Sequence record: MN850645.1
Length of the DNA: 64,000 bases
Source of the DNA: Escherichia phage outra
Direction: 5' to 3' (one strand)
Below are positions 14,570 through 48,906 of this stretch, piece after piece. Position 1 is the first letter of the stretch, and the number at the start of each line of letters is the position of its first letter. Both the position numbers and the translations under genes were made by a program. Below the pieces are notes generated by a model. It saw only the letters and a list, made by a program, of their open reading frames with translations, made no database searches and was not told the origin of the DNA.

Positions 14570-14646
14570 TCTTTTCTCCTCTTTAATGCGGAGGACAATC
14601 CTCCGCTCTATGTCTTATACTATAAACTGTTTTTAAAGAAAGTCAA

Positions 14647-36841: not shown

Positions 36842-36955
36842 GTATGATAATCATTTTCATTTGTAAATGAGAATCATTATCATTTAAGTATGTAAGTGAT
36901 AATCATTCTCAGTAAGAGAATGAGAATCATTAGCAAATGAGAATTTTCTCATTTA
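36842..36955. promoter_or_regulatory. cluster of AT-rich dyad operator-like sites (AATGA-n3-TCATT, Fur-box-like)
   Basis: gataatcatt, aatgagaatcattatc, gtgataatcattctc, gaatgagaatcattagc and the perfect palindrome aaatgagaattttctcattt. Confidence 0.45.
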
Positions 36956-37624: not shown

Positions 37625-37854
37625 CATCTTGTCGAGGGGGGCGAGGCACAACGACAATAAACAAAAGGAGGGCGCAATGCAGGACGGGCAAAGGTGAGGA
37701 TCTCCACAATCCACCGTCACAATAACATTACTTATAAAAGGTTGATAACGATGATCAAGAAAGAAAACAGCTTGACGGTTGGAACGATTAACGCTATCAT
37801 TCTAGCCGTTCCATTTTGGATTGTAGTAGCGGTTATTATCTTTTAAAAATATTC

Positions 37855-37912
37855 TTGACAACGTTTTTTAATCTGATAAGATGTATCACATAGGGCGGCA
37901 ATAGTGCCGCTC
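37855..37912 (+). promoter_or_regulatory. early promoter plus stem-loop cassette (TTGACA, TAAGAT, hairpin GGGCGGCAATAGTGCCGCTC)
   Basis: Module directly precedes the RBS and ATG of 37935..38207. Confidence 0.6.
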
Positions 37913-37934
37913 ATAACAGAAGAGAGAAATAATC

Positions 37935-38207
37935 ATGGCATCATATAGCGCATCAATGATCGTAGCTGGCATCACTGGTAAACCTATGCGCGGTGGCGGA
38001 TCTTTCGCTAACATCAATATTGATGGGCGTTTATCCCTGGATGCAGCGATCACCGTGGCACGGGAAACATTTAAAAAAGAATGTAATTTCAATAAACAAG
38101 ATTATCTCGGCTTCGTTATTGAAAAAACCGCGCGCTTTGTGGATTATAAAAGCCCGAAAATGATCGACACTACACTAAAAGCGCAAGATGTAGCGTTTTT
38201 GCTTTAA
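37935..38207 (+). CDS. hypothetical early protein
   Basis: 90 aa; promoter/stem-loop/RBS module upstream. Confidence 0.5.
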   Translation: MASYSASMIVAGITGKPMRGGGSFANINIDGRLSLDAAITVARETFKKECNFNKQDYLGFVIEKTARFVDYKSPKMIDTTLKAQDVAFLL

Positions 38208-38210
38208 GGC

Positions 38211-38271
38211 TTGACACTTAAAAATAATTTTGTAATATATACCACATAAGGCGGGGAAATGGTTTCCCGCC
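38211..38271 (+). promoter_or_regulatory. early promoter plus stem-loop cassette (TTGACA-17-TAATAT, hairpin GGCGGGGAAATGGTTTCCCGCC)
   Basis: Consensus-like spacing; hairpin abuts RBS. Confidence 0.65.
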
Positions 38272-38293
38272 AAATCAAAGAAAGGGTAATGCA

Positions 38294-38656
38294 ATGAGCA
38301 AGCAAATCAATACTATCATGTTAAACCTGGTATCTTTCCGCGACGACGTGAAAAATCTTCCACGTGATGCAGTGGATGCACGGATCGAAAGCTATCGCTC
38401 ACAGATCGCAACGCTACCGCTAAAACGTGATCAACATGCCGCTAATATGATGCTTAATGCTATGCTTAAAAAGATGATTCAATGTGATCTTACCCTGGCT
38501 TATGAATATGCTGGCGATCTCTTTGTAACATATAGCAAGCCCGTACCAGGTATGAGCACAACCGAAGAATTGCATGCCTTAAATCTGCGACAAGATGCAT
38601 GGGATAACATGCGCCGTGTTATGGTATGGGTAGAAAGCGGTAAAATTTACGAATAA
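38294..38656 (+). CDS. hypothetical early protein
   Basis: 120 aa. Confidence 0.5.
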   Translation: MSKQINTIMLNLVSFRDDVKNLPRDAVDARIESYRSQIATLPLKRDQHAANMMLNAMLKKMIQCDLTLAYEYAGDLFVTYSKPVPGMSTTEELHALNLRQDAWDNMRRVMVWVESGKIYE

Positions 38657-38734
38657 AAACGGTTAACATTGCACTAAAACCTGATAAGCTATCTTAAAGC
38701 GGGAACTATTCCCGCTTACATAGGATAAAACTTT

Positions 38735-38884
38735 ATGAAACAATATGTAATGAGTATTCACACCAAAAACGGCGCTACTGTTACAACTCCGGCACGGTTT
38801 GCACTTGTAAACCGTTGCAAGAGACTAAAACGAGAGTTAAAAAATAACCGTGCAACGGGCTGCTTTAAACGCTGGGGAGGATAA
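38735..38884 (+). CDS. hypothetical small basic protein
   Basis: 49 aa hand-translated; preceded by hairpin AAGCGGGAACTATTCCCGCTT. Confidence 0.3.
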   Translation: MKQYVMSIHTKNGATVTTPARFALVNRCKRLKRELKNNRATGCFKRWGG

Positions 38885-38886
38885 TC

Positions 38887-39159
38887 TTGTTTTTTCTAAA
38901 AGTTTTTGATAATGTGATCGCTTTTGAACATGCTACAACGTTCAACCTGGCGAGATACGCTATCAGGTTTAAAGATAATGTTTATCCCCGTGCTGGTGGC
39001 GGTTACACTATCTTTAATCATCGTAACGCTCAATTAACAGATATAACGAATCCAGATCCTGGAGTGTATCGCATAGGCTGGCTACCGTCAAAAGACGCGG
39101 CAAGCATGTTTAAGGTGTGTAAACTACTAACAGAAGAGGCGAACGAACATGGGGCGTGA
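38887..39159 (+). CDS. hypothetical protein (TTG start per ORF track)
   Basis: 90 aa; GGGGAGGA RBS 6 nt upstream. Confidence 0.4.
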   Translation: MFFLKVFDNVIAFEHATTFNLARYAIRFKDNVYPRAGGGYTIFNHRNAQLTDITNPDPGVYRIGWLPSKDAASMFKVCKLLTEEANEHGA

Positions 39160-39703
39160 ATATGTGATCCAGTCATGGGTAAAGCATGACGCTAATGATC
39201 CGCGCATAATACCAGATGACATGATCGATCACATGGTAGGGTACAGCGGGGAGCAGATAGGGAATCGAGCGGCAAAGAGCAACGGGCACACAAAGACGCG
39301 ATCCGTTCGCCCTGGTTGGCTGGCAAATGGTAACGCTGACATTGCAAGCGCCGCAGATCCAAGCGATGACGCTAAAAATAATCCCTTATATAGCATTGAT
39401 CCGGCTTTTAAGGTGTTAGAAGAGTATCCCGCTAAATTAGCCGCACTAGATAAGGCATACGAAGAAAAGCGCATGGCATGGACTGTATACAACACCGCTA
39501 AAATGGTGCTAGATGCAAAATTGATTAAAGCCCAGGAGAAGATCAATAAACTTGTTGCAGTAGCGCAAGAGGAAGACCAGGACGACCAGGAGGAAGAGGA
39601 AGAAATCATGCCTACCCTGGAAGAGGAAGAGATCCAGCCATACATGCCGACGGAAGAGGAAAAAAGACAAGCCCTAAAAAATTATGAAAATTGCATTGTG
39701 TAA
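39149..39703 (+). CDS. hypothetical protein with acidic D/E-rich C-terminus
   Basis: 184 aa. Confidence 0.45.
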   Translation: MGREYVIQSWVKHDANDPRIIPDDMIDHMVGYSGEQIGNRAAKSNGHTKTRSVRPGWLANGNADIASAADPSDDAKNNPLYSIDPAFKVLEEYPAKLAALDKAYEEKRMAWTVYNTAKMVLDAKLIKAQEKINKLVAVAQEEDQDDQEEEEEIMPTLEEEEIQPYMPTEEEKRQALKNYENCIV

Positions 39704-39784
39704 GGCTTGACATATGCAAATAAGCCCCGTAATATGTACCACATAAAGCGGGGCAACGCCCCATAAAGTGAAATAAAAAATCAC

Positions 39785-39812
39785 TTGACACCTGAAATCA
39801 GTAAGCTATAAT
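39785..39812 (+). promoter_or_regulatory. consensus sigma70 promoter (TTGACA-16-TATAAT), second of a tandem pair (first TTGACA near 39707)
   Basis: Read directly. Confidence 0.6.
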
Positions 39813-39849
39813 GCTTATATAGATTGAAACATTACTAAGGAATAAAAGC

Positions 39850-40029
39850 ATGGCTATTATTGCAAAAACTGAGATCGTAGGTTTAGATTCTATCATCCTG
39901 GCATATGAGGAAGCTGTAGAAATGTATGTGGTTTCCTATGGTGATTATATCCGTGAATATAAATCTATTGATCTAGCTTTTGAATGCTATATTCGCCAGG
40001 TCAATAAAGCATATGATGATTATCGTTAA
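39850..40029 (+). CDS. hypothetical small protein
   Basis: 59 aa hand-translated downstream of consensus promoter. Confidence 0.35.
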   Translation: MAIIAKTEIVGLDSIILAYEEAVEMYVVSYGDYIREYKSIDLAFECYIRQVNKAYDDYR

Positions 40030-40124
40030 AAGTTTTAGTCTTGTGCTATTGACAACGAACGATAGTACAAGCATAATAACTTTTATCGGGAATACTCCTA
40101 ACTAATCAAAAGAGATTAAAGACT

Positions 40125-40490
40125 ATGGCTAAAAATATCAATGTTTCTGCTTATGCTACCCTGGCTAACACTGCTAAAATTGAACTATCTAGCATTGAAG
40201 CGGTACATATTAGCGCCCGTCGCTGGTTTCAAAAGTCTTATGGTAACACTTATTTCTCTTTGATGGTTGACGTTGAGATCGGCGGTAAACTGATCGAAGT
40301 CGTTAACGTTCCGTTTCACTATGGCTACGGGGATCATTTTGATACCGTTGCCCTAGAAGAGTTTAGCAAGGTTATCAACCTGGAAGGTAAAGAGTTTTCA
40401 AATTATGCCTACCTTTCCCGTTTTTGCCGTGATAATGGGATCGCTGTATACAGTCATGCAAGCGATGTTAAACGTAAAAAAGATTTATAA
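40125..40490 (+). CDS. hypothetical early protein
   Basis: 121 aa; TTGACA promoter near 40049. Confidence 0.5.
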   Translation: MAKNINVSAYATLANTAKIELSSIEAVHISARRWFQKSYGNTYFSLMVDVEIGGKLIEVVNVPFHYGYGDHFDTVALEEFSKVINLEGKEFSNYAYLSRFCRDNGIAVYSHASDVKRKKDL

Positions 40491-40610
40491 AAAGCATTGA
40501 CAGCACGAATAAAAAGCGTAAAATGTTTCATATCAGGACGGGGAACGAAGTAACACCCCGTTAAGTAGCCCAGGAGTAAGGCACACGAAAAACTCCCCTG
40601 ATAAAATAGT

Positions 40611-40670
40611 TTGACAATGGTTTCTAATAACGTATAATACTTACATCGAGAGCGGGAACACTTCCCGCCT
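40611..40670 (+). promoter_or_regulatory. early promoter plus stem-loop cassette (TTGACA-16-TATAAT, hairpin GAGCGGGAACACTTCCCGCCTC); second TTGACA/TAAAAT promoter with hairpin at about 40497-40562
   Basis: Read directly. Confidence 0.6.
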
Positions 40671-40693
40671 CACTGAAAAAAGAGATTAACATC

Positions 40694-40933
40694 ATGGCTA
40701 AATCTAAAATGTTCTTAGGTCACAAAAACAAAACTCATTGGAATGTAAGCCTTTGGATCAACAACGATGAAGGTTTTTATAATCTTGCGCGTGAATTTAT
40801 CGCAGCTAACACCAATAAGAATGACGCAGCGCGTGATATGATGTTATTTCTTGAAAGTATGGATCAAGATAAAACGCCAGACGGTTACAAGTTCAGTAAA
40901 ACCGCGATCCGTGCCGCTATGGTTGGAATGTAA
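40694..40933 (+). CDS. hypothetical early protein
   Basis: 79 aa. Confidence 0.5.
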   Translation: MAKSKMFLGHKNKTHWNVSLWINNDEGFYNLAREFIAANTNKNDAARDMMLFLESMDQDKTPDGYKFSKTAIRAAMVGM

Positions 40934-41029
40934 AGGAGACATAAAAATGAAACATCGTTCGACCTATCTCACAAAACGTTTTAGCTTAGATCATAAATTG
41001 GGCTATTACGGAAGAAATAGAAAATAATT

Positions 41030-41090
41030 TGACAACGTTTTAAATTAGTGTAAGATATATCACATAGGGCGGGAAATGGTTTCCCGCCAA
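41030..41090 (+). promoter_or_regulatory. early promoter plus stem-loop cassette (hairpin GGGCGGGAAATGGTTTCCCGCC)
   Basis: TTGACA, TAAGAT, hairpin, AAAGAAAGG RBS; near-identical to module at 38211. Confidence 0.65.
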
Positions 41091-41110
41091 ATCAAAGAAA
41101 GGTTATCATT

Positions 41111-41338
41111 ATGGCTATCATTATTGTTCGCGTATCCGGTACGGTTGGAAGCTCCCAGGTAGTAGCAGTTATCACCGAGAAGAAAGGGGATGATCTTCAC
41201 TCTTCCTTGAATAGCTGGGCGGTAGCTAACTTCGGGCAATGGTCGAGCGTTGAGTACATCGAATCCTACCAGGTGCCAACGATTAGCCTAACCGATCTAA
41301 ATGTTGATCGCTTGTTGTGCCTGGATGGATTAAACTAA
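41111..41338 (+). CDS. hypothetical early protein
   Basis: 75 aa. Confidence 0.5.
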   Translation: MAIIIVRVSGTVGSSQVVAVITEKKGDDLHSSLNSWAVANFGQWSSVEYIESYQVPTISLTDLNVDRLLCLDGLN

Positions 41339-41346
41339 AAATAATC

Positions 41347-41405
41347 TTGACAAGATAACTAAAATCAGTAAAATGTAATGCATAGGGCGGCAATAGTGCC
41401 GCTCC
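41347..41405 (+). promoter_or_regulatory. early promoter plus stem-loop cassette (hairpin GGGCGGCAATAGTGCCGCTC)
   Basis: TTGACA, TAAAAT, hairpin. Confidence 0.6.
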
Positions 41406-41425
41406 TAGTGAGAGAGATTATCAAA

Positions 41426-41638
41426 ATGGCTAATATCCGCACACTGTTAAAAAATGCAAAACAAGTTTTATTTTCTGATCACGATCATTTTAATAAAGAT
41501 ATTACAGGCGTGAAGAATATCAAAGAGGTAAAAAGTGTTATGGGTATCTATTGCAATATGAAGCGAGTAGGCACATTTGGTGATAAAGTATTATATCAGG
41601 CAGGTGACTACAATTTTACTTTGACAATTATCAACTAA
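41426..41638 (+). CDS. hypothetical early protein
   Basis: Start at Met after module. Confidence 0.45.
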   Translation: MANIRTLLKNAKQVLFSDHDHFNKDITGVKNIKEVKSVMGIYCNMKRVGTFGDKVLYQAGDYNFTLTIIN

Positions 41639-41649
41639 GGGATCACAAA

Positions 41650-41808
41650 ATGAAAACTTGCCAATGTGGTAAAAAGTCTATCTCTGGTTTAAAACGTGGC
41701 GTTGCTCTTTGTCAATATCACTATAACGCTCAAACGTGGGGTAAGCAGTGGGCGGATCAGGTGGAAGAGGCAAAGAAAGAAAATATAAAAGTAGTTGCAA
41801 AGAAATAA
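41650..41808 (+). CDS. small Cys-containing protein
   Basis: 52 aa hand-translated (MKTCQCGKK...). Confidence 0.3.
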   Translation: MKTCQCGKKSISGLKRGVALCQYHYNAQTWGKQWADQVEEAKKENIKVVAKK

Positions 41809-41879
41809 AAATAGAGTAAACTGTATTCATCAAGGCGGTGGAATAGCTCACCGCCTAACAAAGAGAAGAGGAAAACATC

Positions 41880-42050
41880 ATGATCACTTTCGCTACCCGT
41901 GAAGCCGCTCGCAACGTTGCACGTAAAGTTAATGCCGCCAACCTGGGCGCTACGCTTAAAGCCCCGGTAAAAGATGAATCAGGTAAATGGATCTTTCCTG
42001 GTCTGCGTCACGCTGATAAGCTGGGAACATTAACGTTAAAAAATAAATAA
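41880..42050 (+). CDS. hypothetical small protein
   Basis: 56 aa hand-translated; preceded by hairpin GGCGGTGGAATAGCTCACCGCC. Confidence 0.3.
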   Translation: MITFATREAARNVARKVNAANLGATLKAPVKDESGKWIFPGLRHADKLGTLTLKNK

Positions 42051-42057
42051 TATCCGC

Positions 42058-42117
42058 TTGACAGTAGCATGGTTTATAAGTAAAGTAACAACAACGGCGG
42101 GAAATGGTTTCCCGCCA
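42058..42117 (+). promoter_or_regulatory. early promoter plus stem-loop cassette (hairpin GGCGGGAAATGGTTTCCCGCC)
   Basis: TTGACA plus hairpin abutting RBS. Confidence 0.55.
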
Positions 42118-42136
42118 TCAATAAAGAGATAAGATT

Positions 42137-42496
42137 ATGAAATCAGTAAAAGCAATCAAAACTTACATTGTATCGGCTATTTCTTTTGAAGGTACTACAA
42201 CCGAAAAAGAAAAAATCACCGAACTGATGCGCCGTTTTAATTCTGAATACTGGTATCCCGATAATCAAAAACGTTACAATTATAACGTGATCAAGGCGAT
42301 AGCCTCATGGTTACAAGGTTTACCGTCAGACATTAACATTGCCTTTGATTATAACGAGATTGATCATTTATTAATTGAATGGAAGTACATAAAAGAAACA
42401 AGCAAAGAAACAACCGTTACCCGTGAGCGGGAAAATTATTGGTTATATATTGCAAGCATGATCGTAATCCTGGCAAAACAGCATAACGTGGCGTAA
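42137..42496 (+). CDS. hypothetical early protein
   Basis: 119 aa. Confidence 0.5.
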   Translation: MKSVKAIKTYIVSAISFEGTTTEKEKITELMRRFNSEYWYPDNQKRYNYNVIKAIASWLQGLPSDINIAFDYNEIDHLLIEWKYIKETSKETTVTRERENYWLYIASMIVILAKQHNVA

Positions 42497-42511
42497 TTAA
42501 GAGGAAGAAAC

Positions 42512-42649
42512 ATGAACGCATCACAGCAGATCGAAAAATTCAACCGCAGCAAGGCGCGTAAAGATTGGAACGAAGAGATCACCAAAAAAGGCGACAAGCG
42601 GAACAAAACAAAAAGAGATCGCAGCACAAAAAGATACTGGAACGAATAA
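42512..42649 (+). CDS. small highly basic (K/R-rich) protein
   Basis: 45 aa hand-translated; GAGGAAG RBS; terminator follows. Confidence 0.3.
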   Translation: MNASQQIEKFNRSKARKDWNEEITKKGDKRNKTKRDRSTKRYWNE

Positions 42650-42650
42650 C

Positions 42651-42680
42651 AAAAAAGGGCGCAATAAGCGCCCTTTTAGC
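42651..42680 (+). terminator. Rho-independent terminator
   Basis: aagggcgcaataagcgccctttt. Confidence 0.7.
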
Positions 42681-42768
42681 TTATATAGGGGCTTGTTACC
42701 CATAGGCAATGGTAACGCCAGGGCAAGCCTATAAATCAACGTTAGACGGCTTTACAGGAGCTTTAAAA

Positions 42769-42951
42769 ATGAGATTAGAAGAAATAAGCAAGGCACTAGA
42801 CCAGGAGCAAAGGTTATGCGCCCGATATCGTGATCAATATGGCTTCATAACTAGCGGCGTGATCCTGGGGATGGAAGGCAATAAGATTTTTATTGACACG
42901 TTGAAAAACGTTGTATATAGTGACAATATAATCTCAATAAAACATATATGA
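42769..42951 (+). CDS. hypothetical protein
   Basis: Start at Met with CAGGAG RBS. Confidence 0.4.
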   Translation: MRLEEISKALDQEQRLCARYRDQYGFITSGVILGMEGNKIFIDTLKNVVYSDNIISIKHI

Positions 42952-42959
42952 GGCAAGAA

Positions 42960-43361
42960 ATGAAAAACTTATTGATCGCTGGTTTAATCTCTTTTGGCAT
43001 GGTTGGAACATCTAGCGCGGCGATATCCTCCACAGTAGCAGAATTAAGCGCCGTTGATGCAATGGAAAACGTCATGCTTATTAATAATGCGATCCCCGAT
43101 GAAATCATGGAGGATTCACACATGATCGCTTATGGTGCTGTTACACAACTAACGGCAAAAATAGATAAATCTATTGTTAATGGCTTAAATGAAGATGTAC
43201 CATGTGAAATTATTACCAGTGTGCTGACTACTCAAAATTTTACGCCGTGGTTAAAAAGTATTCAAAAAGTACACAGTACAGCCGCAGATCGTAGCAATGA
43301 AAAACTAGTGTCAGCACTTGCAACGTATACCCTAGCAAAATGCACTGAGATAAAAGATTGA
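42960..43361 (+). CDS. secreted protein (signal peptide)
   Basis: MKNLLIAGLISFGMVGTSSAAIS leader. Confidence 0.45.
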   Translation: MKNLLIAGLISFGMVGTSSAAISSTVAELSAVDAMENVMLINNAIPDEIMEDSHMIAYGAVTQLTAKIDKSIVNGLNEDVPCEIITSVLTTQNFTPWLKSIQKVHSTAADRSNEKLVSALATYTLAKCTEIKD

Positions 43362-43408
43362 CAACATAGAAAGCACGTTATAAGATACACACAACAAAGG
43401 AGAACTAC

Positions 43409-43711
43409 ATGAACGGCATAGCTAAAACGTTTTTTCTTTTTTCTGGTGTAAATGATCCATCAATAAAAGTCGATAGTGTAAAAGAAAAAAATACTATCAC
43501 CGCTAAATTGTTTCAAGATGAAACAAATAACGTGCTAATCATTAATCTTAAAGAAGTAACGAAAGGTTATTATACTATTGCTTACCATGCGATCTATCAT
43601 GCTGGTACTGGTGAGGAAGTGCAAACAAGCAACAACGAAAGCGCGGCGCTACCTGGTGATCTGGTGCTGGGCGTTATCAGTTTAATTGTCAATGATTTTT
43701 TTAAGGAGTAA
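43409..43711 (+). CDS. hypothetical protein
   Basis: 100 aa. Confidence 0.45.
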   Translation: MNGIAKTFFLFSGVNDPSIKVDSVKEKNTITAKLFQDETNNVLIINLKEVTKGYYTIAYHAIYHAGTGEEVQTSNNESAALPGDLVLGVISLIVNDFFKE

Positions 43712-44040
43712 AACCATGCCCTATTTACATTTATTTTTCGGTATCTTATTAACAGGATCTTTTTTCTTCTGTATGCTTGTTTCTATTGTAAACCACGTTT
43801 TAAGACATTAAGGAAACAGCATGAAAATTATTCCCGTACAATATAGCGTAATAAATCCAGCATATGAGGAAGGAAGGAAAACAAGCATGGCTTTATGTTG
43901 TATTGCTACTATAGCCATGTTGTTATACATTGTGTTTTAATAGGTTTTATAGTTGTACGCTTTAAAGGCTTGACAATTTTTTGTTATGCTTTAAACTATA
44001 TCTTGAAAACGGCAAAGGCCGCAAACAAAAGGGTAAAATT

Positions 44041-44364
44041 ATGAAATCTGTGATCGGTGTTTATTTGGATAACTCTGATTTTTTCTATCATCGCGCGCGT
44101 TTACTTGATGCTATTGAAATGATAGAATCAGGCTTTAAAGAGTATCGCCTTGCACATGATGACCTGGAAGCATTACAGGGCAATAGTGTTTTTACATTGC
44201 AAGCGAAAGCACTATGCAAAAGCCGGATCGAGATTGCAAGTAAAAAGATAGAGCGCGGCATGTCCTGGTTGCGCACCGCAGAAATCAACATGGGGCAATG
44301 GTACGGCGAAAACTTAGAAAATAAACATGCTTTTGTCAATGTAGAAAATATTGAAGATTATTGA
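44041..44364 (+). CDS. hypothetical early protein
   Basis: TTGACA near 43970; start at Met after short hairpin. Confidence 0.45.
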   Translation: MKSVIGVYLDNSDFFYHRARLLDAIEMIESGFKEYRLAHDDLEALQGNSVFTLQAKALCKSRIEIASKKIERGMSWLRTAEINMGQWYGENLENKHAFVNVENIEDY

Positions 44365-44427
44365 TTGACAGCACACCGAACGGGGAGTATATTGTATCTC
44401 ATAGAGCGGGGAAATGGTTTCCCCGCC
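44365..44427 (+). promoter_or_regulatory. early promoter plus stem-loop cassette (TTGACA-17-TATATT, hairpin GAGCGGGGAAATGGTTTCCCCGCC)
   Basis: Read directly. Confidence 0.6.
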
Positions 44428-44446
44428 TTAAAAGAAGAGATAAGCT

Positions 44447-44731
44447 ATGAAGATCACAAAAGCACTTTCCAACTATGCAGCACGTCGCGGCTTATGTTTA
44501 ACCGTTGAAAACCTGGGGAAAGAAGATTTTTTGTGCTTTTGGGAGCTTGAGAATGATAATGAGTGGATCTTCTCTTATTCTATCTGCGAAGATCAAAACG
44601 GTTGTTTATTAGCCTGGCGCGGTAATATCTATCTACCGGAAGAAATCAAAGAAGAATTACCAGGCACGATCATGACTGAGAAACAGCTTAAGGAAGTGAT
44701 CAATTTTGTAGGGCAAAACATTAAAAAATAA
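44447..44731 (+). CDS. hypothetical early protein
   Basis: 94 aa. Confidence 0.5.
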   Translation: MKITKALSNYAARRGLCLTVENLGKEDFLCFWELENDNEWIFSYSICEDQNGCLLAWRGNIYLPEEIKEELPGTIMTEKQLKEVINFVGQNIKK

Positions 44732-44732
44732 T

Positions 44733-44790
44733 TTGACACTAGGCAAACAACGTAGTAAAGTTTATCACATAGGGCGGCAATAGTGCCGCT
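44733..44790 (+). promoter_or_regulatory. early promoter plus stem-loop cassette (hairpin GGGCGGCAATAGTGCCGCTC)
   Basis: The stretch from the hairpin to the RBS is almost identical to the module at 37855. Confidence 0.6.
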
Positions 44791-44812
44791 CATAACAGAA
44801 GAGAAACAAATC

Positions 44813-44983
44813 ATGATCCCAACTATGTTTTATGTATCGCGCAAAGGTCACAATATTTTTTGGTCTGAAGATTTAAATGAAGCCATGACGTTTGCCCGTG
44901 ATCGTGTCGCTATCGGTGGCGTTAACATTACCGTAACCGATGAAAATGGCATTGAATACTATAACGGCGACGATGAAGAGTAA
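44813..44983 (+). CDS. hypothetical small protein
   Basis: Start at Met after module. Confidence 0.4.
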   Translation: MIPTMFYVSRKGHNIFWSEDLNEAMTFARDRVAIGGVNITVTDENGIEYYNGDDEE

Positions 44984-45030
44984 TTAATGAGGCGGGGGAA
45001 TATTCCCCGCCGTCAATAAAGAGGTAAATC

Positions 45031-45300
45031 ATGAAAATATCATTGGACGTTGCAATCAAGGCCATCGAATCCGGTTACACCCTGGTAAAAGATGATAAGG
45101 CTAAAATAGTGCATCATGTTAACAAGGAAACAGGCGAAAGCATGATCACATATAAAGCCGCCTACTTTCTCCAATCAGTAGCAGATCCGCGCGTACAACG
45201 CCAGGTTACGGCGGCTATTGCTAAAAAAGTATGTGCTTTACAGGGTACAAGTTTTAACGAGATCGCCCCGTGTTTTGACTGGTCGAGCTTGAAAAAATAG
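45031..45300 (+). CDS. hypothetical protein
   Basis: 89 aa; preceded by hairpin GGCGGGGGAATATTCCCCGCC. Confidence 0.45.
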   Translation: MKISLDVAIKAIESGYTLVKDDKAKIVHHVNKETGESMITYKAAYFLQSVADPRVQRQVTAAIAKKVCALQGTSFNEIAPCFDWSSLKK

Positions 45301-45496
45301 TTTGACAATATGCGGTTATCTGGTAAAGTGTACGACATAGGGCGGGGCAATAAGGCAACGCCCACTAATGAGGGTAAAATCATGTTAGAGAAAATTTTCA
45401 CGGTTGTAGTAGTGGGCCTGGCGTTATCGGTTGGAGTGATTGCAACTATGGCTAACATGATCCTATCTTCCCACGGTATTGGATAAGGTGAATCAA

Positions 45497-45712
45497 ATGA
45501 TCACGAATAAGACAGGTAAAACAGAATTTTTACGCGGCTTGCAAATTGGTAAACCTGAAATATGGCATTGCACTAAATCCGCGCATAATGAGATGAAAGA
45601 CTTTACCGCCACGTTACAACGTGTTAAAATATCTATTACGCAGAAAAAAGCCTTATTAGTAGTAGAAAACGAGATACCGCAAACCATTATTATTGTCGAG
45701 CGTACAGCATGA
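45497..45712 (+). CDS. hypothetical protein
   Basis: Start at first ATG; a 34-aa hydrophobic micro-ORF lies upstream (about 45382-45486) after a TTGACA promoter at 45302. Confidence 0.4.
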   Translation: MITNKTGKTEFLRGLQIGKPEIWHCTKSAHNEMKDFTATLQRVKISITQKKALLVVENEIPQTIIIVERTA

Positions 45713-46095
45713 AAACTGAAATCATTATTGAAATCATCAACGGTTATAAAGAAGCCTTTATTTTTGCTGAATCAGCCAGGGATCATGAAGGTAATTTTGT
45801 AAACGACATGACTGACTATGATTTTTCAGATCAAGCCCATCAGCGGATCATTCATGACGTAGCGGCTTATTGTGATGCCAATGATGCTGCTATCTCTGAG
45901 GCAATGAGCGACGGCGCAACAGCAAACCAGATCGGGAATGACTTACATTTCACCCGTAACGGTCACGGCGTAGGCTTTTGGGATCGCCCTGAAATATACA
46001 CTACTAACACCGCCAACCGCCTAACAAATGCAGCTAAATTAATGCCATCGGTGCATGCTTACATTGGTGAAGATAATTTGATTTATATTGAATAA
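45709..46095 (+). CDS. hypothetical protein
   Basis: 128 aa; ATGA overlap with upstream gene. Confidence 0.45.
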   Translation: MKTEIIIEIINGYKEAFIFAESARDHEGNFVNDMTDYDFSDQAHQRIIHDVAAYCDANDAAISEAMSDGATANQIGNDLHFTRNGHGVGFWDRPEIYTTNTANRLTNAAKLMPSVHAYIGEDNLIYIE

Positions 46096-46101
46096 AAAGT
46101 A

Positions 46102-46160
46102 TTGACACCGATCCCCGATATGTTATTATTTACCACGTAGGCGGGAAATGGTTTCCCGCC
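46102..46160 (+). promoter_or_regulatory. early promoter plus stem-loop cassette (hairpin GGCGGGAAATGGTTTCCCGCC)
   Basis: TTGACA, TATTAT-like -10, hairpin. Confidence 0.6.
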
Positions 46161-46184
46161 AGGTAATCAAAAAAGGTAAATACT

Positions 46185-46574
46185 ATGCGCAACCTGGTTT
46201 CTGTTTCTAACGTTGAAAAATTTCAATCCTTGCAGGGTATCGTTAACAACGTAGCGCCTTTTCTAGTCAATGGCTTGATTGCAAAGATGAAAAATAAACA
46301 TCATGCAGCATGGTCTGCTTACTGCTTTGATAATGATGAAAAAGCGGCTGAAATGATGTTAAATATGCTGTTAGATAGTGTAGAATCATCTTTACCGGAA
46401 AACATCGCAGAAGAGATCACCTATCGTTATAATATGGCGATCACCTATCAGGAGGTTGCGCAATTCAATATGATGGACGATGACGAACAACAGGATCAGG
46501 AAATGTTTTGGGAATATGCAGATCGTCAATCGGCTTTTGATGAAAAGTTAGCGATGTATTATAACGAATATTAA
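46185..46574 (+). CDS. hypothetical acidic protein
   Basis: 129 aa. Confidence 0.5.
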   Translation: MRNLVSVSNVEKFQSLQGIVNNVAPFLVNGLIAKMKNKHHAAWSAYCFDNDEKAAEMMLNMLLDSVESSLPENIAEEITYRYNMAITYQEVAQFNMMDDDEQQDQEMFWEYADRQSAFDEKLAMYYNEY

Positions 46575-46587
46575 TACACGGTAAAAG

Positions 46588-46618
46588 AAAGGGGCGCACT
46601 AAGCGCCCTTTTTTGTAT
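46588..46618 (+). terminator. Rho-independent terminator
   Basis: ggggcgcactaagcgcccctttttt. Confidence 0.7.
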
Positions 46619-46959
46619 TCTTTTTCACGATGGAAGTAACACGTAAAGAATAAACGTAAGAGGTGGCGTAAAACAGCCTAAAACCGATTATAACCGCTTA
46701 AACAAGGTAGTAATGACTAATCACCTTGCCAGGATGAAAAAGCTGTTATAAAGCTATCTAGAGCGTTTAAAGCACATAGGAAATAATTTGCTTTTTATCT
46801 TGCCTTTTATCCTGCTTTTGATTATTATTATGGAACGGGCGGCACCTGGGGACAGGGGAAGATAATCACCGGAAGATCCCGCTATATATTAATAGCTAAT
46901 ACCTATCAAACAACAAAACATCAAAGGAATAAACTATCAAATCTTTACAATCCTACCTA

Positions 46960-47019
46960 TTGACACAGGATCACCCTTATACTAATATGTATCCCGTAGG
47001 GCGGGAAATGGTTTCCCGC
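46960..47019 (+). promoter_or_regulatory. early promoter plus stem-loop cassette (hairpin GGGCGGGAAATGGTTTCCCGC)
   Basis: TTGACA, TATACT/TAATAT, hairpin. Confidence 0.6.
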
Positions 47020-47038
47020 TTGATATAGGAATCATACC

Positions 47039-47272
47039 ATGATCGAACAAATTAAAAGCACTACACCAAATGTTAACGGCAATGTTTCACACTTTATCGG
47101 TGATAATGAAAGGGGCACACCATACGCCGCCGTAACCGTGCAACCTAACGGGGATTATTGGTTTACCGTGTACGGATCATACTCTTTCGGACGCCCGGCA
47201 CATGATAAGATCTTGCAAGCGGTTAAACCTGCGGGGAAGAATATCACAGTAGAAAAATTCTATGAAAAATAA
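47039..47272 (+). CDS. hypothetical protein
   Basis: 77 aa. Confidence 0.5.
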   Translation: MIEQIKSTTPNVNGNVSHFIGDNERGTPYAAVTVQPNGDYWFTVYGSYSFGRPAHDKILQAVKPAGKNITVEKFYEK

Positions 47273-47347
47273 CTTGCTTTATAGCCTCTGTTAATTTATA
47301 GTTATCGTGTAGGGCAAACAATTTTAAACGGTAAACGAGGAATCACC

Positions 47348-47731
47348 ATGAGCAATATCATCAACCTGGCAGCGACTGTAAACGGTAAAGATTTTAACGG
47401 CGCTGTAGATCATGATCCTATGTGGTGCTTATCAGTGTTTAAAGGTGACTTGGTTGAAGTTAGAACAACCGAAGGTTATAGCGACGATTATAAATGCGAG
47501 ATTCATTTACACAACTGGTACACGGGTAAAACTTATGCGCTGAATCATGCGTTTATCGGCAAGGTTGAATATAGGGAAATGATCGACGAAGAAACGGGGC
47601 AAGATTTTAGCGATTATGTTTATATTCGTTCCGAGACATTAGCCGAACGTTTGATCGAGAAAATGAAAGCAAAAAATAAAATTAATTTAGCTCATTGGAT
47701 TGATATAACAAACGATCCTGCTTATCAGTAA
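47348..47731 (+). CDS. hypothetical protein
   Basis: 127 aa; followed by terminator. Confidence 0.5.
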   Translation: MSNIINLAATVNGKDFNGAVDHDPMWCLSVFKGDLVEVRTTEGYSDDYKCEIHLHNWYTGKTYALNHAFIGKVEYREMIDEETGQDFSDYVYIRSETLAERLIEKMKAKNKINLAHWIDITNDPAYQ

Positions 47732-47744
47732 ATAACATTTCAAA

Positions 47745-47773
47745 CAAGGGCGCTTATTGCGCCCTTTCTTTTT
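47745..47773 (+). terminator. Rho-independent terminator
   Basis: aagggcgcttattgcgcccttt plus T-tract. Confidence 0.7.
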
Positions 47774-47977
47774 ACCTAAATAAAGATGATAGCTTTTACC
47801 TATCAAAAACGTTCACCGAAAAAAGTGAATAGATCGCGGTATCGAGCTAATCAGGGAGCAGATGAACAACCATACCATGAAGATCATAAGGCGCTTACAA
47901 CGGCTTTTAGACCGCTTATTTTTAATTTCTTCATGCAACTATCTGGCAAAAACAGCCTTTTTCTTGTCTTTCCTCTT

Positions 47978-48052
47978 AAATGATAATCATTCTTATTTAT
48001 AGCTGATTATTTATGCAATAAACTGCATAATGCAATAATGATAATCATTCTT
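47978..48052. promoter_or_regulatory. two Fur-box-like dyads (AATGATAATCATTCTT), 55 bp apart
   Basis: Read directly. Confidence 0.4.
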
Positions 48053-48906
48053 AACTTATGACCATCTAACCTATAAAATAATAAGCTATCTAACTAAATT
48101 AAAACTAATTATCTCACCTTTATTTATAACTTACTGTTACTATCTCATTGATAACCTTATATTAAACAACAATAACTAATATAAATCATTACTAAGCTAA
48201 ATATAATCTATCTAACCTTTAAAACTATAACTATAATCTATCGAATTGTTGCACAAAGTAACTATTAAATTGTTAGTAACATTGCTAAATAATTAATATC
48301 CTATCTATTTATGATCTAATCTTTACCTTCCTATTTATTACCTAAATAACCATTTCATATAGTAATTATTTCATACAATAACTATAACAAGAAACATAAT
48401 TCGCAAGCGTATCATTAGCAGCCTATGCCGGACACATAGGCGGCTAATAATAACGCAACTACACACCCCACATAATAACCATCACCGATAGTTATTATTT
48501 GTGCTTATGTAGCTTGCAACAATTGCAAGCGCAACAATATACTAAGGTATATTGTATCCCTTACATTGTTGCGGTGCGTTATTATTAGCTAATGTTTAGA
48601 ACATTGGCTATAATATAAGCTGCATATAATAAGCTATTCAATAATAAACATCGTGAATAATGACATTGATGATCATAATGCGCCACCCTCCAGGGGGCGC
48701 TATGTGAACACAAAGAAATCTTTCTTATCAAGAAAATATTATCACTATTGCGCAAAATTATTTACATCTGAATAGATGATTTTTCATACTATTATTGTTA
48801 TTTGTTGAGCATAGTTATAGCCTATTTGTTGAGCCTACTTTCTTAAAAGCGCAATAAATCAGAATTATCTTGATTTTTAGTGCGTTTTATAGTATAGAAA
48901 ATATGC

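What the first reader, a model, noticed from the sequence alone, without database searches (positions are those of the whole stretch)
37850..47780. Array of promoter / stem-loop / RBS cassettes driving about 25 small early genes
At least 12 times a near-consensus sigma70 promoter (TTGACA, 16-18 nt, TAtAaT-like) is followed about 10 nt later by a conserved GC-rich hairpin (variants of GGCGGGAAATGGTTTCCCGCC or GGGCGGCAATAGTGCCGCTC), then an A-rich RBS and the ATG of a 50-130 codon ORF. Some modules are near-identical (37855 versus 44733; 38211 versus 41030), which suggests cassette duplication or recombinational shuffling of regulatory units. The hairpin in the 5' UTR could be an RNase III or RNase E site, a translational control element or a transcript-stabilising structure. 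The small ORFs have no recognisable domains, the typical location of host-takeover and anti-defence genes.
Basis: seen in the sequence. Interest (0 to 1): 0.75.

Follow-up and report, generated by a model that had tools for sequence, protein, structure and literature searches.

The report
Repeated promoter–hairpin–RBS cassettes in phage
The last ~10 kb of this phi92-like coliphage genome is a row of about 30 tiny genes of unknown function, most preceded by the same portable unit of strong host-type promoter, small RNA hairpin and ribosome site; related phages gain, lose and swap these genes at the units, as in the "PeSL" cassettes of T4-like phages.

Summary
Window 37.85–47.8 kb, from a phi92-like Stephanstirmvirinae myophage, holds 18 near-consensus sigma70 promoters on the + strand (2.4 expected). 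Thirteen are followed 9–13 nt after the -10 by a GC hairpin, then an A-rich SD and ATG. Three more hairpins sit behind weak or absent promoters. The hairpins lack U-tracts and differ from the three true terminators in the block.

A covariance model finds them only in this block, plus one copy before a TerC gene. The helix is conserved with compensatory changes across Stephanstirmvirinae and Vequintavirinae.

Comparison with nine relatives shows cassette-bounded gene gain, loss and replacement. One window cassette is an exact chimera of two neighbouring cassettes of a relative. The hairpin tip of one gene is swapped among close relatives.

The closest known thing is the PeSL cassette of T4-like phages. 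This array differs in phage lineage, has no detectable sequence similarity, and places the hairpin at a fixed site in the transcribed 5' leader. The hairpin is therefore most likely an RNA leader element (stabiliser or insulator), not a terminator. That role and the "early" timing are inferred, not shown.

I rate it a new variant of a known kind, of moderate interest.

The parts
37855..37937 (+). Cassette 1: TTGACA-16-TAAGAT, hairpin 37893-37912 (GGGCGGCAATAGTGCCGCTC), SD, ATG 37935 (90-aa ORF 37935-38207)
   Evidence: MFE -14.4, z -4.0
38211..38296 (+). Cassette 2: TTGACA-16-TAATAT, hairpin 38250-38271 (GGCGGGGAAATGGTTTCCCGCC), ATG 38294 (120 aa)
   Evidence: (42.2 bits)
38663..38737 (+). Cassette 3 with a degenerate promoter (TTAACA-16-TAAGCT), hairpin 38697-38717 (AAGCGGGAACTATTCCCGCTT), ATG 38735. 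It drives ORFs 38735-38884, 38887-39159 and 39149-39703.
   Evidence: 31.4 bits; z -5.9. Relatives keep a better promoter here.
39707..39784 (+). Orphan cassette: TTGACA-17-TAATAT, hairpin 39750-39762 (GGGGCAACGCCCC), no ORF; the next promoter follows directly
   Evidence: 15.1 bits
39785..39852 (+). Hairpin-less cassette: perfect TTGACA-16-TATAAT, ATG 39850 (59 aa)
   Evidence: no structure. The ESCO13 ortholog carries a hairpin.
40049..40127 (+). Cassette with only a 4-bp stem: TTGACA-17-CATAAT, ATG 40125 (121 aa)
40497..40610 (+). Orphan cassette: TTGACA-16-TAAAAT, hairpin 40537-40562 (ACGGGG...CCCCGT, 12-nt loop), no ORF
   Evidence: It is absent from most relatives (junction 40534/40633). 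Phage muut has a 91-aa gene behind the equivalent promoter.
40611..40696 (+). Cassette: perfect TTGACA-16-TATAAT, hairpin 40648-40671 (core GCGGGAACACTTCCCGC), ATG 40694 (79 aa, DUF7249)
41029..41113 (+). Cassette: TTGACA-16-TAAGAT, hairpin 41068-41088 (GGCGGGAAATGGTTTCCCGCC), ATG 41111 (75 aa)
   Evidence: (45.5 bits, the best in the window)
41347..41428 (+). Cassette: TTGACA-16-TAAAAT, hairpin 41385-41404, ATG 41426 (70 aa), followed by ORF 41650-41808
41795..41882 (+). Cassette with a weaker -35 (TTGCAA-16-TAAACT), hairpin 41833-41856 (AGGCGGTGGAATAGCTCACCGCCT), ATG 41880 (56 aa)
   Evidence: z -4.1
42058..42139 (+). Cassette: TTGACA-17-TAAAGT, hairpin 42096-42116, ATG 42137 (119 aa), followed by the T7 gp1.1-like ORF 42512-42649
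42653..42677 (.). True bidirectional intrinsic terminator (AAAAGGGCGCAATAAGCGCCCTTTT), a different class from the cassette hairpins
   Evidence: family D6
42893..42962 (+). Hairpin-less cassette: TTGACA-17-TATAGT, ATG 42960 (133 aa; phi92 gp239 ortholog, annotated there with a signal peptide)
43358..43411 (+). Hairpin-less cassette with a short UTR: TTGACA-17-TAAGAT, ATG 43409 (100 aa), followed by small ORFs up to 43940
43970..44043 (+). Cassette with only a 4-bp stem (CGGCAAAGGCCG): TTGACA-16-TAAACT, ATG 44041 (107 aa)
44365..44449 (+). Cassette: TTGACA-17-TATATT, hairpin 44406-44426 (GCGGGGAAATGGTTTCCCCGC), ATG 44447 (94 aa)
44733..44815 (+). Cassette: TTGACA-17-TAAAGT, hairpin 44772-44791 (GGGCGGCAATAGTGCCGCTC), ATG 44813 (56 aa). 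The hairpin tip differs among close relatives.
44984..45033 (+). Promoter-less half cassette: hairpin 44991-45011 (GGCGGGGGAATATTCCCCGCC), SD, ATG 45031 (89 aa)
   Evidence: (32.4 bits)
45302..45384 (+). Cassette: TTGACA-16-TAAAGT, hairpin 45340-45363 (GGGCG...CGCCC), ATG 45382. It drives ORFs 45382-45486, 45497-45712 and 45709-46095, and is a chimera of two Paula cassettes.
46102..46187 (+). Cassette: TTGACA-16-TATTAT (TG-extended), hairpin 46140-46160, ATG 46185 (129 aa)
46586..46614 (.). True intrinsic terminator (AGAAAGGGGCGCACTAAGCGCCCTTTTTT)
46960..47041 (+). Cassette: TTGACA-17-TAATAT, hairpin 47000-47020 (GGCGGGAAATGGTTTCCCGCT, G.U at the base), ATG 47039 (77 aa), followed by the T4 gp30.8-like ORF 47348-47731
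   Evidence: (43.3 bits)
47746..47766 (.). True intrinsic terminator that closes the array, about 1.07 kb before the terminal repeat (48832-49148)
14568..14646 (-). The one cassette outside the array: TTGACT-16-TATAGT, leader ataagaCATAGA, hairpin GCGGAGGATTGTCCTCCGC, SD, ATG of a TerC-family membrane protein (ORF 13592-14569)
   Evidence: (21.3 bits)

Best explanation
The block is a hyperplastic accessory-gene region. It occupies the last ~10 kb before the right terminal repeat of a phi92-like myophage and is built from about 20 copies of a portable expression cassette.

The cassette order is: AT-rich upstream region, near-consensus sigma70 promoter, 'CAyATAG' start region, GC hairpin with an invariant GCGG...CCGC core, A-rich unstructured SD, ATG.

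Shown by sequence:
- The promoters are host-type and need no phage factor.
- Each hairpin starts 9-13 nt after the -10, so it is transcribed as the first structured element of a 43-51 nt leader. The predicted start is the A of cATAG, which leaves 1-4 unpaired 5' nucleotides. The SD stays unpaired.
- The helix is kept by compensatory changes.
- The cassettes are the places where related genomes differ by whole-gene insertions, deletions, replacements and a translocation.
- At least one crossover lies inside the shared UP/-35 sequence of two cassettes.

Inferred:
- The genes are transcribed early by unmodified host RNA polymerase.
- The hairpin works in the + strand mRNA as a 5'-leader element. 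It would hinder 5'-end-dependent decay (RppH / RNase E). As a self-contained fold, it would also keep the adjacent RBS open whatever coding sequence is joined to it.
- It does not act as a terminator.
- The 60-90 bp of repeated cassette sequence gives the homology for recombination and patchy gene conversion, so genes move as ready-to-express modules. This is the PeSL principle.
For: Identity and context.
- The region is 96-97% identical to Justusliebigvirus phages Nernie, ESCO8 and Paula.
- The phi92 right terminal repeat maps to 48832-49148. The phi92 annotation places gp225-gp248 just before that repeat.

Cassette statistics.
- 18 promoters versus 2.4 +/- 1.7 expected; 9 promoter plus perfect-hairpin pairs versus 0.005 expected.
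- The layout is the same from copy to copy.

Structure.
- UTR MFE is -14 to -19 kcal/mol, with z down to -5.9.
- A CM search of all 64 kb without filters finds + strand hits only in 37885-47026, plus one cassette at 14.6 kb.
- Across 82 distinct sequences, 92% of cells are paired versus 48-72% when the partners are slid.
- 4 of 9 pairs show double-sided changes.
- The covariation score is 0.198 versus 0.135 +/- 0.007, and 0 of 500 shuffles reach it.
- The anchored table shows the core invariant and positions +4, +5, -1 and -2 covarying.
- The same leader and hairpin occur at the same offset in FV3 (Vequintavirus), Citrobacter Tr1 and Enterobacter F2M1E (Certrevirus).

Not a terminator.
- The 8 nt after the hairpin average 1.4 T and 4.65 A.
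- The scan calls none of them on the + strand, while three canonical A/T-flanked terminators lie in the same block.
- A terminator at about +4 to +25 of its own strong promoter would abort its own transcripts (logic).

+ strand RNA.
- 32 G.U-type versus 11 A.C-type cells in 61 distinct + strand rows.
- The + strand fold is better in 63 segments versus 26.

Shuffling.
- The same ortholog sits behind different hairpin types in different phages, and gene content and order differ.
- 19 of 29 unique homology breakpoints fall in cassettes, which make up 19.5% of the sequence (p = 8e-8).
- The window cassette at 45302 equals the left half of one Paula cassette plus the right half of the next, joined in the shared AAAAAATAGTTTGACAA.
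- In the g23 cassette only the hairpin tip between GCGG and CCGC is exchanged, with both arms changing together.

5'-end biology. RppH and RNase E need at least 2 unpaired 5' nucleotides and prefer 3 or more, and a 5'-terminal stem-loop blocks RppH (PMC8833179). Classical 5' stem-loop stabilisers are listed in PMC3997798.
Against: - No transcription start, half-life or timing data exist for this phage group in the searched library.
- With the predicted start, 3-4 nucleotides are usually unpaired. That is enough for RppH and RNase E to engage, so 5' protection may be only partial unless transcription starts 2 nt further downstream.
- Five promoters in the same array work without a real hairpin, so the hairpin is not obligatory.
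- The invariant GCGG/CCGC core and the recurrent apical AAT(G/A)G are more conserved than a purely thermodynamic role requires. This could reflect a trans-acting factor or simply homogenisation by gene conversion.
- The strand tests use related sequences and a model-fitted alignment. A naive count was not significant (16 versus 13).
- Cassettes fill almost all the intergenic space. Breakpoint enrichment in them is partly what purifying selection alone would give.
Confidence: 0.6

Rival explanations
1. The stem-loops are transcription terminators or attenuators, as proposed for canonical PeSLs. They would either stop read-through from the upstream unit on the + strand or terminate antisense transcription on the - strand, which is how the Paula record annotates them.
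For: - In RB49/phi1 a PeSL stem-loop reduced lacZ expression as much as rrnB T1, and one PeSL subclass has the stem-loop downstream of the -10 (PMC2839356).
- Eight of the 12 'terminator' features in the Paula record sit on the cassette hairpins, on the - strand relative to the genes.
- The consensus scan calls two of them on the - strand, at 42120 and 39763.
Against: - There is no U-tract on the + strand: 1.4 T and 4.65 A in the 8 nt after the stem.
- The sequence after the stem on the - strand is CTATGTG, which is only weakly T-rich.
- No genes or strong promoters face the array on the - strand.
- Genuine A/T-flanked terminators of a different sequence family are used at 42653, 46586 and 47746.
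- The hairpin lies at about +4 to +25 of its own promoter, so efficient termination would kill the cassette's own transcript.
Confidence: 0.1
2. The hairpin is a cis-acting RNA signal read by a dedicated trans-acting factor. Candidates are a phage or host RNA-binding protein that coordinately represses, stabilises or antiterminates all cassette transcripts, in the way lambda N acts on boxB or T4 RegA acts on early mRNAs.
For: - The GCGG...CCGC core is invariant in 26 distinct hairpins.
- The apical AAT(G/A)G motif recurs across hairpin types and genera.
- The hairpin sits at a fixed position near the 5' end of every transcript.
- A very basic 45-aa T7 gp1.1-like protein is encoded in the array. 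This is only a loose lead.
Against: - No Rfam family matches, and no candidate RNA-binding protein was identified.
- Loops and upper stems do vary (CAC, TTG, AAAAC, and 8-12-nt loops) without loss of the element.
- The conservation can be explained by common descent plus gene conversion.
- Each unit has its own promoter, so antitermination is not obviously needed.
Confidence: 0.15
3. The 'hairpin' is a palindromic double-stranded DNA operator, centred about +14, for a dimeric repressor that shuts off the early promoters. This is the position lacO occupies.
For: - It is a near-perfect 19-22-bp palindrome immediately downstream of the start site at more than a dozen promoters.
- The outer half-sites GCGG/CCGC are invariant.
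Against: - The distance between the conserved GCGG and CCGC half-sites varies from 8 to 12 bp among cassettes. A rigid dimer on duplex DNA would not tolerate that, but a stem-loop would.
- The inner stem sequences differ completely between types while staying complementary.
- G.T positions are tolerated preferentially in the sense that gives G.U in the mRNA.
Confidence: 0.07
4. The hairpin has no function of its own. It is a hitch-hiking part of a repeat that spreads and is homogenised by recombination, or its only role is as recombination substrate (linker homology or a cruciform).
For: - Cassettes are recombination and conversion sites.
- Some promoters do without the hairpin.
- PeSL authors speculated that the stem-loop might be a target for recombination proteins (PMC2839356).
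Against: - Pairing is maintained by double-sided changes across two subfamilies whose cassette flanks have diverged.
- The hairpin keeps a fixed offset from the -10 and from the SD.
- When the tip is exchanged, both arms change together.
- These patterns indicate selection on the structure itself.
Confidence: 0.08

Closest known systems
PeSL (promoter-early stem-loop) cassettes of T4-like phages: RB49/phi1, T4/PST, KVP40/nt-1 (Arbiol et al. 2010, PMC2839356; Comeau et al. 2014, PMC4122927)
   Same: - Composite unit of AT-rich region, strong sigma70-like promoter, G/C-rich stem-loop, SD and ATG.
- Many copies are concentrated in a hyperplastic region of small ORFans.
- Indels and replacements between close relatives are bounded by the units, with crossovers inside them.
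- 'Half' and degraded units occur.
- One of the five RB49 subclasses also has the stem-loop downstream of the -10.
   Different: - Different phage lineage: Stephanstirmvirinae / Vequintavirinae, not T4-like.
- No detectable sequence similarity. Among the 142 phage records hit by the cassette, the organism tally and listed rows show no T4-like phage.
- The stem-loop position is fixed, always 9-13 nt after the -10 and therefore inside the transcript. In PeSLs it is variable and mostly upstream of or overlapping the promoter.
- There is no U/T-rich tail, so a terminator role is unlikely.
- The hairpin has a conserved core and leader motif (CAyATAGG-GCGG).
- Mini-circles and promoter or terminator activities have not been tested here.
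5'-terminal stem-loop mRNA stabilisers of E. coli (ompA, papA; Emory, Bouvet & Belasco 1992; Bricker & Belasco 1999; cited in PMC3997798)
   Same: A stable hairpin close to the 5' end of the mRNA, followed by an unstructured leader with the RBS. This is the geometry known to hinder RppH and RNase E 5'-end-dependent decay (PMC8833179).
   Different: - The predicted 5' overhang here is 1-4 nt, mostly 3-4, which may be too long for full protection.
- The start sites are unmapped.
- The element is repeated at more than a dozen genes rather than occurring in a single mRNA.
Lambda-type nut/boxB hairpins
   Same: A small hairpin near the 5' end of early transcripts initiated at strong sigma70 promoters.
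   Different: - No boxA, no GNRA-like pentaloop, no N-like gene identified and no Rfam hit.
- Present at nearly every gene rather than once per operon.
Rho-independent terminators
   Same: A GC-rich stem of 7-10 bp with a short loop. The Paula record annotates these hairpins as terminators.
   Different: - They lack the U-tract.
- They are located between a promoter and its RBS.
- The real terminators in the same block belong to another sequence family.

Membership tests
PeSL cassettes (T4-like phages) | Strong sigma70-like promoter with an AT-rich upstream region | tested here: met
   18 sites with at least 10/12 matches versus 2.4 expected. TTGACA is exact in 20 cassettes. The upstream regions are A/T-rich.
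PeSL cassettes (T4-like phages) | Stable G/C-rich stem-loop as part of the unit | tested here: met
   16 hairpins of -14 to -19 kcal/mol, with covariation support.
PeSL cassettes (T4-like phages) | SD and start codon of the downstream gene at the 3' edge of the unit | tested here: met
   A-rich AAAGAGA-type SD 20-27 nt after the hairpin, then the ATG.
PeSL cassettes (T4-like phages) | Many copies clustered in a hyperplastic region of small genes of unknown function | tested here: met
   About 20 units in 10 kb. The CM finds them nowhere else in the 64 kb except one site. All ORFs are of unknown function.
PeSL cassettes (T4-like phages) | Indels and replacements between close relatives bounded by the units, with crossovers inside them | tested here: met
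   19 of 29 breakpoints lie in cassettes. A chimeric cassette has its crossover in the shared UP/-35 sequence. A hairpin-tip conversion is seen.
PeSL cassettes (T4-like phages) | The stem-loop acts as terminator or attenuator of upstream transcription (position upstream of or overlapping the promoter; lacZ assay) | tested here: not met
   Only the sequence features could be tested. The stem-loop is always downstream of the -10 and inside the transcript, with no U-tract. Terminator activity itself cannot be tested with these tools.
PeSL cassettes (T4-like phages) | Occurrence in T4-like phages, or sequence relatedness to the RB49/T4/KVP40 PeSLs | tested here: not met
   The host genome is phi92-like. 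A blastn search (word size 11) with a cassette hits 142 phage records. The organism tally and the 40 listed rows show only Stephanstirmvirinae, Vequintavirinae and mislabelled relatives.
PeSL cassettes (T4-like phages) | Formation of mini-circles by recombination between neighbouring units | not testable with these tools
   Needs inverse PCR on infected cells or virion DNA.
5'-terminal stabilising stem-loop (ompA type) | Stem-loop within 0-1 (at most 2) unpaired nucleotides of the 5' end | tested here: inconclusive
   The predicted start (A of cATAG, 8th nt after the -10) leaves 1-4 unpaired nucleotides. The start sites are unmapped.
5'-terminal stabilising stem-loop (ompA type) | Prolongs mRNA half-life in an RNase E / RppH-dependent way | not testable with these tools
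   Needs rifampicin-chase experiments.
Intrinsic (Rho-independent) terminator | GC-rich hairpin immediately followed by a U-tract on the transcribed strand | tested here: not met
   Mean 1.4 T in the 8 nt after the stem on the + strand. None is called on the + strand.
Any curated RNA family (Rfam 15) | Match to a covariance model | tested here: not met
   The only hit is a sub-threshold one on the 42653 terminator (E = 0.48). Nothing hits the cassette hairpins.

The most novel reading that the evidence does not exclude
The leader hairpin (CAyAUAG + GCGG...CCGC stem with apical AAU(G/A)G) is a lineage-wide RNA 'tag', conserved across Stephanstirmvirinae and Vequintavirinae, that marks accessory-gene mRNAs for a dedicated trans-acting factor. 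Such a factor might exempt them from phage-induced mRNA decay, or allow one phage protein to switch the whole cassette regulon off or on. That would make this a post-transcriptional regulon carried on mobile cassettes.
Probability: 0.18. Interest if true: 0.7.

Novelty: new variant of a known kind. Interest (0 to 1): 0.45.

Why it matters
- It extends the PeSL principle to an unrelated group of large coliphages that are widely isolated for therapy (phi92-, phAPEC8- and rV5-like). In PeSLs, accessory genes travel as self-expressing modules that recombine at their shared regulatory sequence. Finding the same design here suggests it is a convergent, general solution for phage accessory-gene turnover.
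- It flags a likely annotation error: at least one GenBank record (phage Paula) annotates these hairpins as reverse-strand terminators.
- It supplies a compact natural set of promoter, 5'-hairpin and RBS parts, with built-in variants and hairpin-less controls. These can be used to test what a 5' leader hairpin does for mRNA stability and context-independent translation during infection.
- The roughly 30 cassette-driven ORFs are the obvious candidates for host-takeover or anti-defence screens.

Tried and rejected
- MAFFT plus RNAalifold on raw cassette segments gave only a 4-bp stub, because the loops of variable length were misaligned. I replaced this with a register anchored on GCGG/CCGC and a covariance model.
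- Alignment A2 was discarded. It was out of register, and one seed had been typed by hand rather than taken from a sequence.
- A naive strand test gave 16 G.T versus 13 A.C interruptions, which is not significant. The CM-aligned count of 32 versus 11 and the MFE comparison lean towards the + strand. Both use related sequences and a model-fitted alignment, so I treat this as suggestive only.
- Rfam has no family for the hairpins. There are no tRNAs in the window.
- Literature searches found PeSLs only in T4-like and cyanophage contexts, and no transcriptome for this subfamily. The searches covered promoter-hairpin cassettes and TSS data in phi92-, phAPEC8-, rV5- and PVP-SE1-like phages. The rV5 paper lists promoters and T-tract terminators separately and does not link them to a hairpin.
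- The Srd lead came from the rV5 paper, which calls gp11 'Srd-like'. From my own knowledge, T4 Srd is reported to stimulate RNase E. There is no tblastn hit in this 64-kb window. The rest of the genome was not examined.
- RNase III site rejected: the stems are 7-10 bp.
- Duplex-DNA operator rejected as the main reading, because the half-site spacing varies from 8 to 12 bp.
- The classic papers on 5' stem-loops (PMC1369620, PMC93829) are not held.

Full report
**What the window is.**
The region 37,850-47,780 is 96-97% identical over 93-99% of its length to Escherichia phages Nernie, ESCO8, Paula and others, which are Justusliebigvirus (phi92-like) myophages of the subfamily Stephanstirmvirinae. 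In phi92 the orthologous genes gp225-gp248 lie immediately before the right direct terminal repeat. That repeat maps to window 48,832-49,148 at 96.8% identity. The array is therefore the last ~10 kb of unique sequence at the right end of a linear ~146-kb genome. All annotated genes of the block in five relatives are on the same strand as in the window.

**Checking the observation.**
- *Promoters.* On the + strand of 37.8-47.1 kb there are 18 promoter-like sites with at least 10 of 12 consensus matches. In 200 dinucleotide-preserving shuffles the mean is 2.4 +/- 1.7 and the maximum is 9.
- *Hairpins.* Nine promoters are followed within 20 nt by a perfect GC-rich hairpin of at least 6 bp, against a mean of 0.005 in the shuffles. 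Allowing a bulge or a long loop, 13 of 18 carry a hairpin whose first paired base is 9-13 nt after the -10 hexamer. Three more hairpins of the same family follow a degenerate promoter or none (38697, 41833, 44991).
- *Layout.* The units are strikingly uniform: A/T-rich upstream region, TTGACA, 16-17 nt, TAnnnT, 'GTAyCACATAG', hairpin, A-rich stretch with an AAAGAGA-type SD, ATG.
- *Folding.* The predicted leaders fold at -14 to -19 kcal/mol. Thirteen of 14 have z between -2.8 and -5.9 and one has z -1.9. In all 14 the SD stays unpaired, although in two (45337, 46137) a weak downstream helix reaches the start codon. The four hairpin-less leaders that were folded look like their shuffles.
- *Genes.* I count about 29-31 ORFs of 31-184 aa. 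Pfam recognises only DUF7249, T7 gp1.1-like and T4 gp30.8-like families, and every PHROG hit is 'unknown function'.

**Two classes of hairpin.**
A census of perfect hairpins in all 64 kb separates two classes.
- A-run/T-run-flanked stems such as AAAAGGGCGC...GCGCCCTTTT. These are canonical bidirectional terminators, scattered through the window and present three times in the block (42653, 46586, 47746).
- The cassette hairpins, which lack any T-run and occur only between 37.9 and 47.0 kb.

In the 8 nt after the cassette stems there are on average 1.4 T and 4.65 A. The terminator scan calls none of them on the + strand. Phage Paula's GenBank record nevertheless annotates eight of them as terminators on the opposite strand. 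I consider this an artefact of terminator prediction.

**Is the structure conserved?**
- *Anchored table.* Anchoring 26 distinct hairpins from ten genomes on their common GCGG...CCGC core shows the core invariant. The pairs above and below it covary: position +4 is G-C x19, C-G x6 and U-A x1; positions +5, -1 and -2 alternate between G-C, A-U and G.U.
- *Covariance model.* A model built from 17 real copies and run without filters over the whole window finds + strand matches only in 37,885-47,026. The - strand hits are weaker mirror images of the same near-palindromes. There is one independent copy on the - strand at 14.6 kb. That copy is a complete cassette with a different stem (GCGGAGGA/UCCUCCGC) in front of a TerC-family gene.
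- *Pair counts.* Over the window and 12 fetched loci the model aligns 82 distinct sequences. 92% of cells are paired, versus 48-72% when the partners are slid. Four of nine pairs show double-sided changes. There are 37 double-changed cells versus 15 +/- 4.5 in shuffles, and the covariation score is 0.198 versus 0.135 +/- 0.007; for both measures 0 of 500 shuffles reach the observed value. The alignment is fitted to the model and the sequences are related, so these numbers overstate independence.
- *Distant relatives.* The same unit recurs in FV3 (Vequintavirus), Citrobacter phage Tr1 and Enterobacter phage F2M1E (Certrevirus): -10, 'CAyATAGG', and a GCGG-type hairpin starting about 10 nt after the -10, with differing but complementary stems.

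**Shuffling.**
I laid the cassettes and ORF clusters of the window and five relatives side by side.
- *Same gene, different hairpin.* The ortholog at 44813 carries a GCGGCAATAGTGCCGC hairpin in the window, muut and ESCO8. It carries a GCGGGAAATGGTTTCCCGC hairpin in Paula and Nernie, and a third type in ESCO13.
- *Gene content and order.* Whole genes are present or absent (41650; 39850; a 64-aa gene in relatives at 45.3 kb; a 91-aa gene in muut at 40.5 kb). ESCO13 also has a different gene order.
- *Breakpoints.* Against nine relatives, 19 of 29 unique homology breakpoints fall inside cassettes, which make up 19.5% of the sequence (binomial p = 8e-8). The caveat is that cassettes are nearly all of the intergenic space.
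- *A chimeric cassette.* The window cassette at 45302 is identical on its left to the cassette upstream of the extra Paula gene. It is identical on its right to the cassette downstream of that gene. The switch lies within the shared 17-18-nt AAAAAATAGTTTGACAA. This is the signature of unit loss or gain by recombination between neighbouring cassettes.
- *A hairpin-tip exchange.* In the 44733 cassette the flanks are identical among relatives. Only the segment between GCGG and CCGC is exchanged, with both arms changing together. This looks like a conversion patch that preserves pairing.
- *Scars.* Two 'orphan' cassettes without ORFs (39707, 40497) and a promoter-less half cassette (44991) look like scars of such events.

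**How it most likely works.**
- *Transcription.* The promoters are host-type and near-consensus, so host RNA polymerase can use them without phage factors. Early expression is the parsimonious inference but is not shown. The rV5 paper notes that sigma70-type promoters occur genome-wide in these phages.
- *Position of the hairpin.* The consensus 'cAT' start places +1 at the 8th nucleotide after the -10. This gives leaders of 43-51 nt that begin 5'-AUAG, then the hairpin, then an unpaired A-rich RBS. The hairpin is thus transcribed at about +4 to +25 of its own promoter.
- *Not a terminator.* That placement, together with the missing U-tract and the separate use of real terminators, argues against a terminator role. 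A terminator there would abort the cassette's own transcript.
- *+ strand RNA.* G.U-type pairs outnumber A.C-type mismatches 32 to 11 in + strand rows. The + strand folds better in 63 segments versus 26. A naive count was not significant, so this is suggestive only.
- *Not a duplex operator.* The distance between the conserved half-sites varies from 8 to 12 bp, which argues against a duplex-DNA operator for a dimeric protein.
- *Best reading.* The hairpin is most likely an mRNA 5'-leader element. It would be a stabiliser against 5'-end-dependent decay and/or a self-contained fold that keeps the neighbouring RBS open in any gene context.
- *Weak point.* RppH and RNase E need at least 2 unpaired 5' nucleotides and prefer 3 or more (PMC8833179). 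The predicted overhang is mostly 3-4 nt, so protection would be partial unless initiation is 2 nt further downstream.
- *What stays open.* The invariant core and the recurrent apical AAU(G/A)G leave room for a trans-acting factor.

**Comparison with what is known.**
The closest precedent is the PeSL cassette of T4-like phages. A PeSL combines a strong sigma70 promoter, a G/C stem-loop and an SD/ATG. PeSLs are repeated in hyperplastic regions and mediate modular shuffling and mini-circle formation (PMC2839356, PMC4122927).

Five of the PeSL features are met here: promoter, stem-loop, SD/ATG, clustering among ORFans, and indels bounded by units with crossovers inside them.

The differences are as follows.
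- *Lineage and sequence.* The phage lineage is unrelated and there is no detectable sequence similarity.
- *Hairpin position.* The hairpin is always transcribed and sits at a fixed site downstream of the -10. In RB49/phi1 the stem-loop position varies among five subclasses and is most often between or over the promoter hexamers. In PST and nt-1 it lies upstream of the promoter. One minor RB49 subclass does have the stem-loop downstream of the -10, so the geometry is not unprecedented.
- *No U-tract.* The terminator role assigned to PeSL stem-loops probably does not apply here.

I found no description of these cassettes in phi92-, phAPEC8-, rV5- or PVP-SE1-type phages in the searchable literature. 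That library lacks most subscription journals.

**Verdict.**
It is best classed as a new variant of a known kind, PeSL-like mobile regulatory cassettes in a second phage lineage, with the hairpin moved into the 5' leader. Interest is moderate at 0.45. The evolutionary mechanism is already established elsewhere. The conserved leader hairpin is an untested and easily testable RNA element shared by two subfamilies of therapeutically popular coliphages.

Noticed in passing
window 36843-36931 and 47979-49121: The Fur-box-like palindrome AATGATAATCATT is the core of the E. coli Fur consensus. It has 28 matches with up to 2 mismatches, versus 6.7 +/- 2.9 in shuffles (0 of 100 shuffles reach 28). The matches form two groups that bracket the cassette array. 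One is four sites 23-29 bp apart at 36.84-36.93 kb. The other is sites at 47979, 48037, 48908 and 49103, the last two inside the terminal repeat. Function unknown.
   Followed up: partly
window 48832-49148: The right direct terminal repeat of phi92 maps here at 96.8% identity. The window therefore runs through the physical genome end into left-end genes, and the assembly is permuted or concatenated.
   Followed up: partly
window 14568-14646 (- strand) and ORF 13592-14569 (-): A single complete promoter-hairpin-SD cassette lies outside the array, with a different stem (GCGGAGGATTGTCCTCCGC). It drives a 325-aa TerC-family integral membrane protein (Pfam E = 1e-38).
   Followed up: yes
window 39707-39784 and 40497-40610: These are orphan cassettes: a promoter plus hairpin with no ORF, followed directly by the next promoter. 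They are probably scars of gene loss. Phage muut has a 91-aa gene behind the 40497-type promoter.
   Followed up: partly
window 42680-42730: An imperfect long hairpin (GGGGCTTG...CAAGCCT) lies right after the 42653 terminator and upstream of ORF 42769-42951, which has no recognisable sigma70 promoter. There is no Rfam match.
   Followed up: no
window 46615-46960: This is a 345-nt stretch without an ORF between a terminator and the last cassette. ESCO13 and PD06 carry 1.1-1.6 kb of extra genes at this position. Nernie annotates small reverse-strand CDSs here.
   Followed up: no
window 39850, 40125, 40694, 41111, 41426: Five array genes begin with the same ATGGCTA (Met-Ala). One gene-unit indel (junction 39856/40125) has exactly this 7-nt microhomology at its junction, so cassette homology may extend into the first codons.
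   Followed up: partly
L001 (phage Paula, LR865361) features PAULA_TERMINATOR_012-020: Eight 'terminator' features annotated on the strand opposite to the genes coincide with the cassette hairpins. This is probably mis-annotation.
   Followed up: yes
hits H6, H21, H33, H53: Several GenBank records named 'Campylobacter phage' (A150, C3, B15; host C. jejuni) are about 94% identical to this coliphage region. They look like mislabelled or contaminating phi92/phAPEC8-like coliphages.
   Followed up: no
window 42512-42649: A 45-aa, very basic protein matches Pfam Phage_1_1 (T7 gp1.1; E = 6.5e-12). It lies immediately before the terminator at 42653. A T7 early-region family thus turns up in a myophage accessory array.
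   Followed up: no
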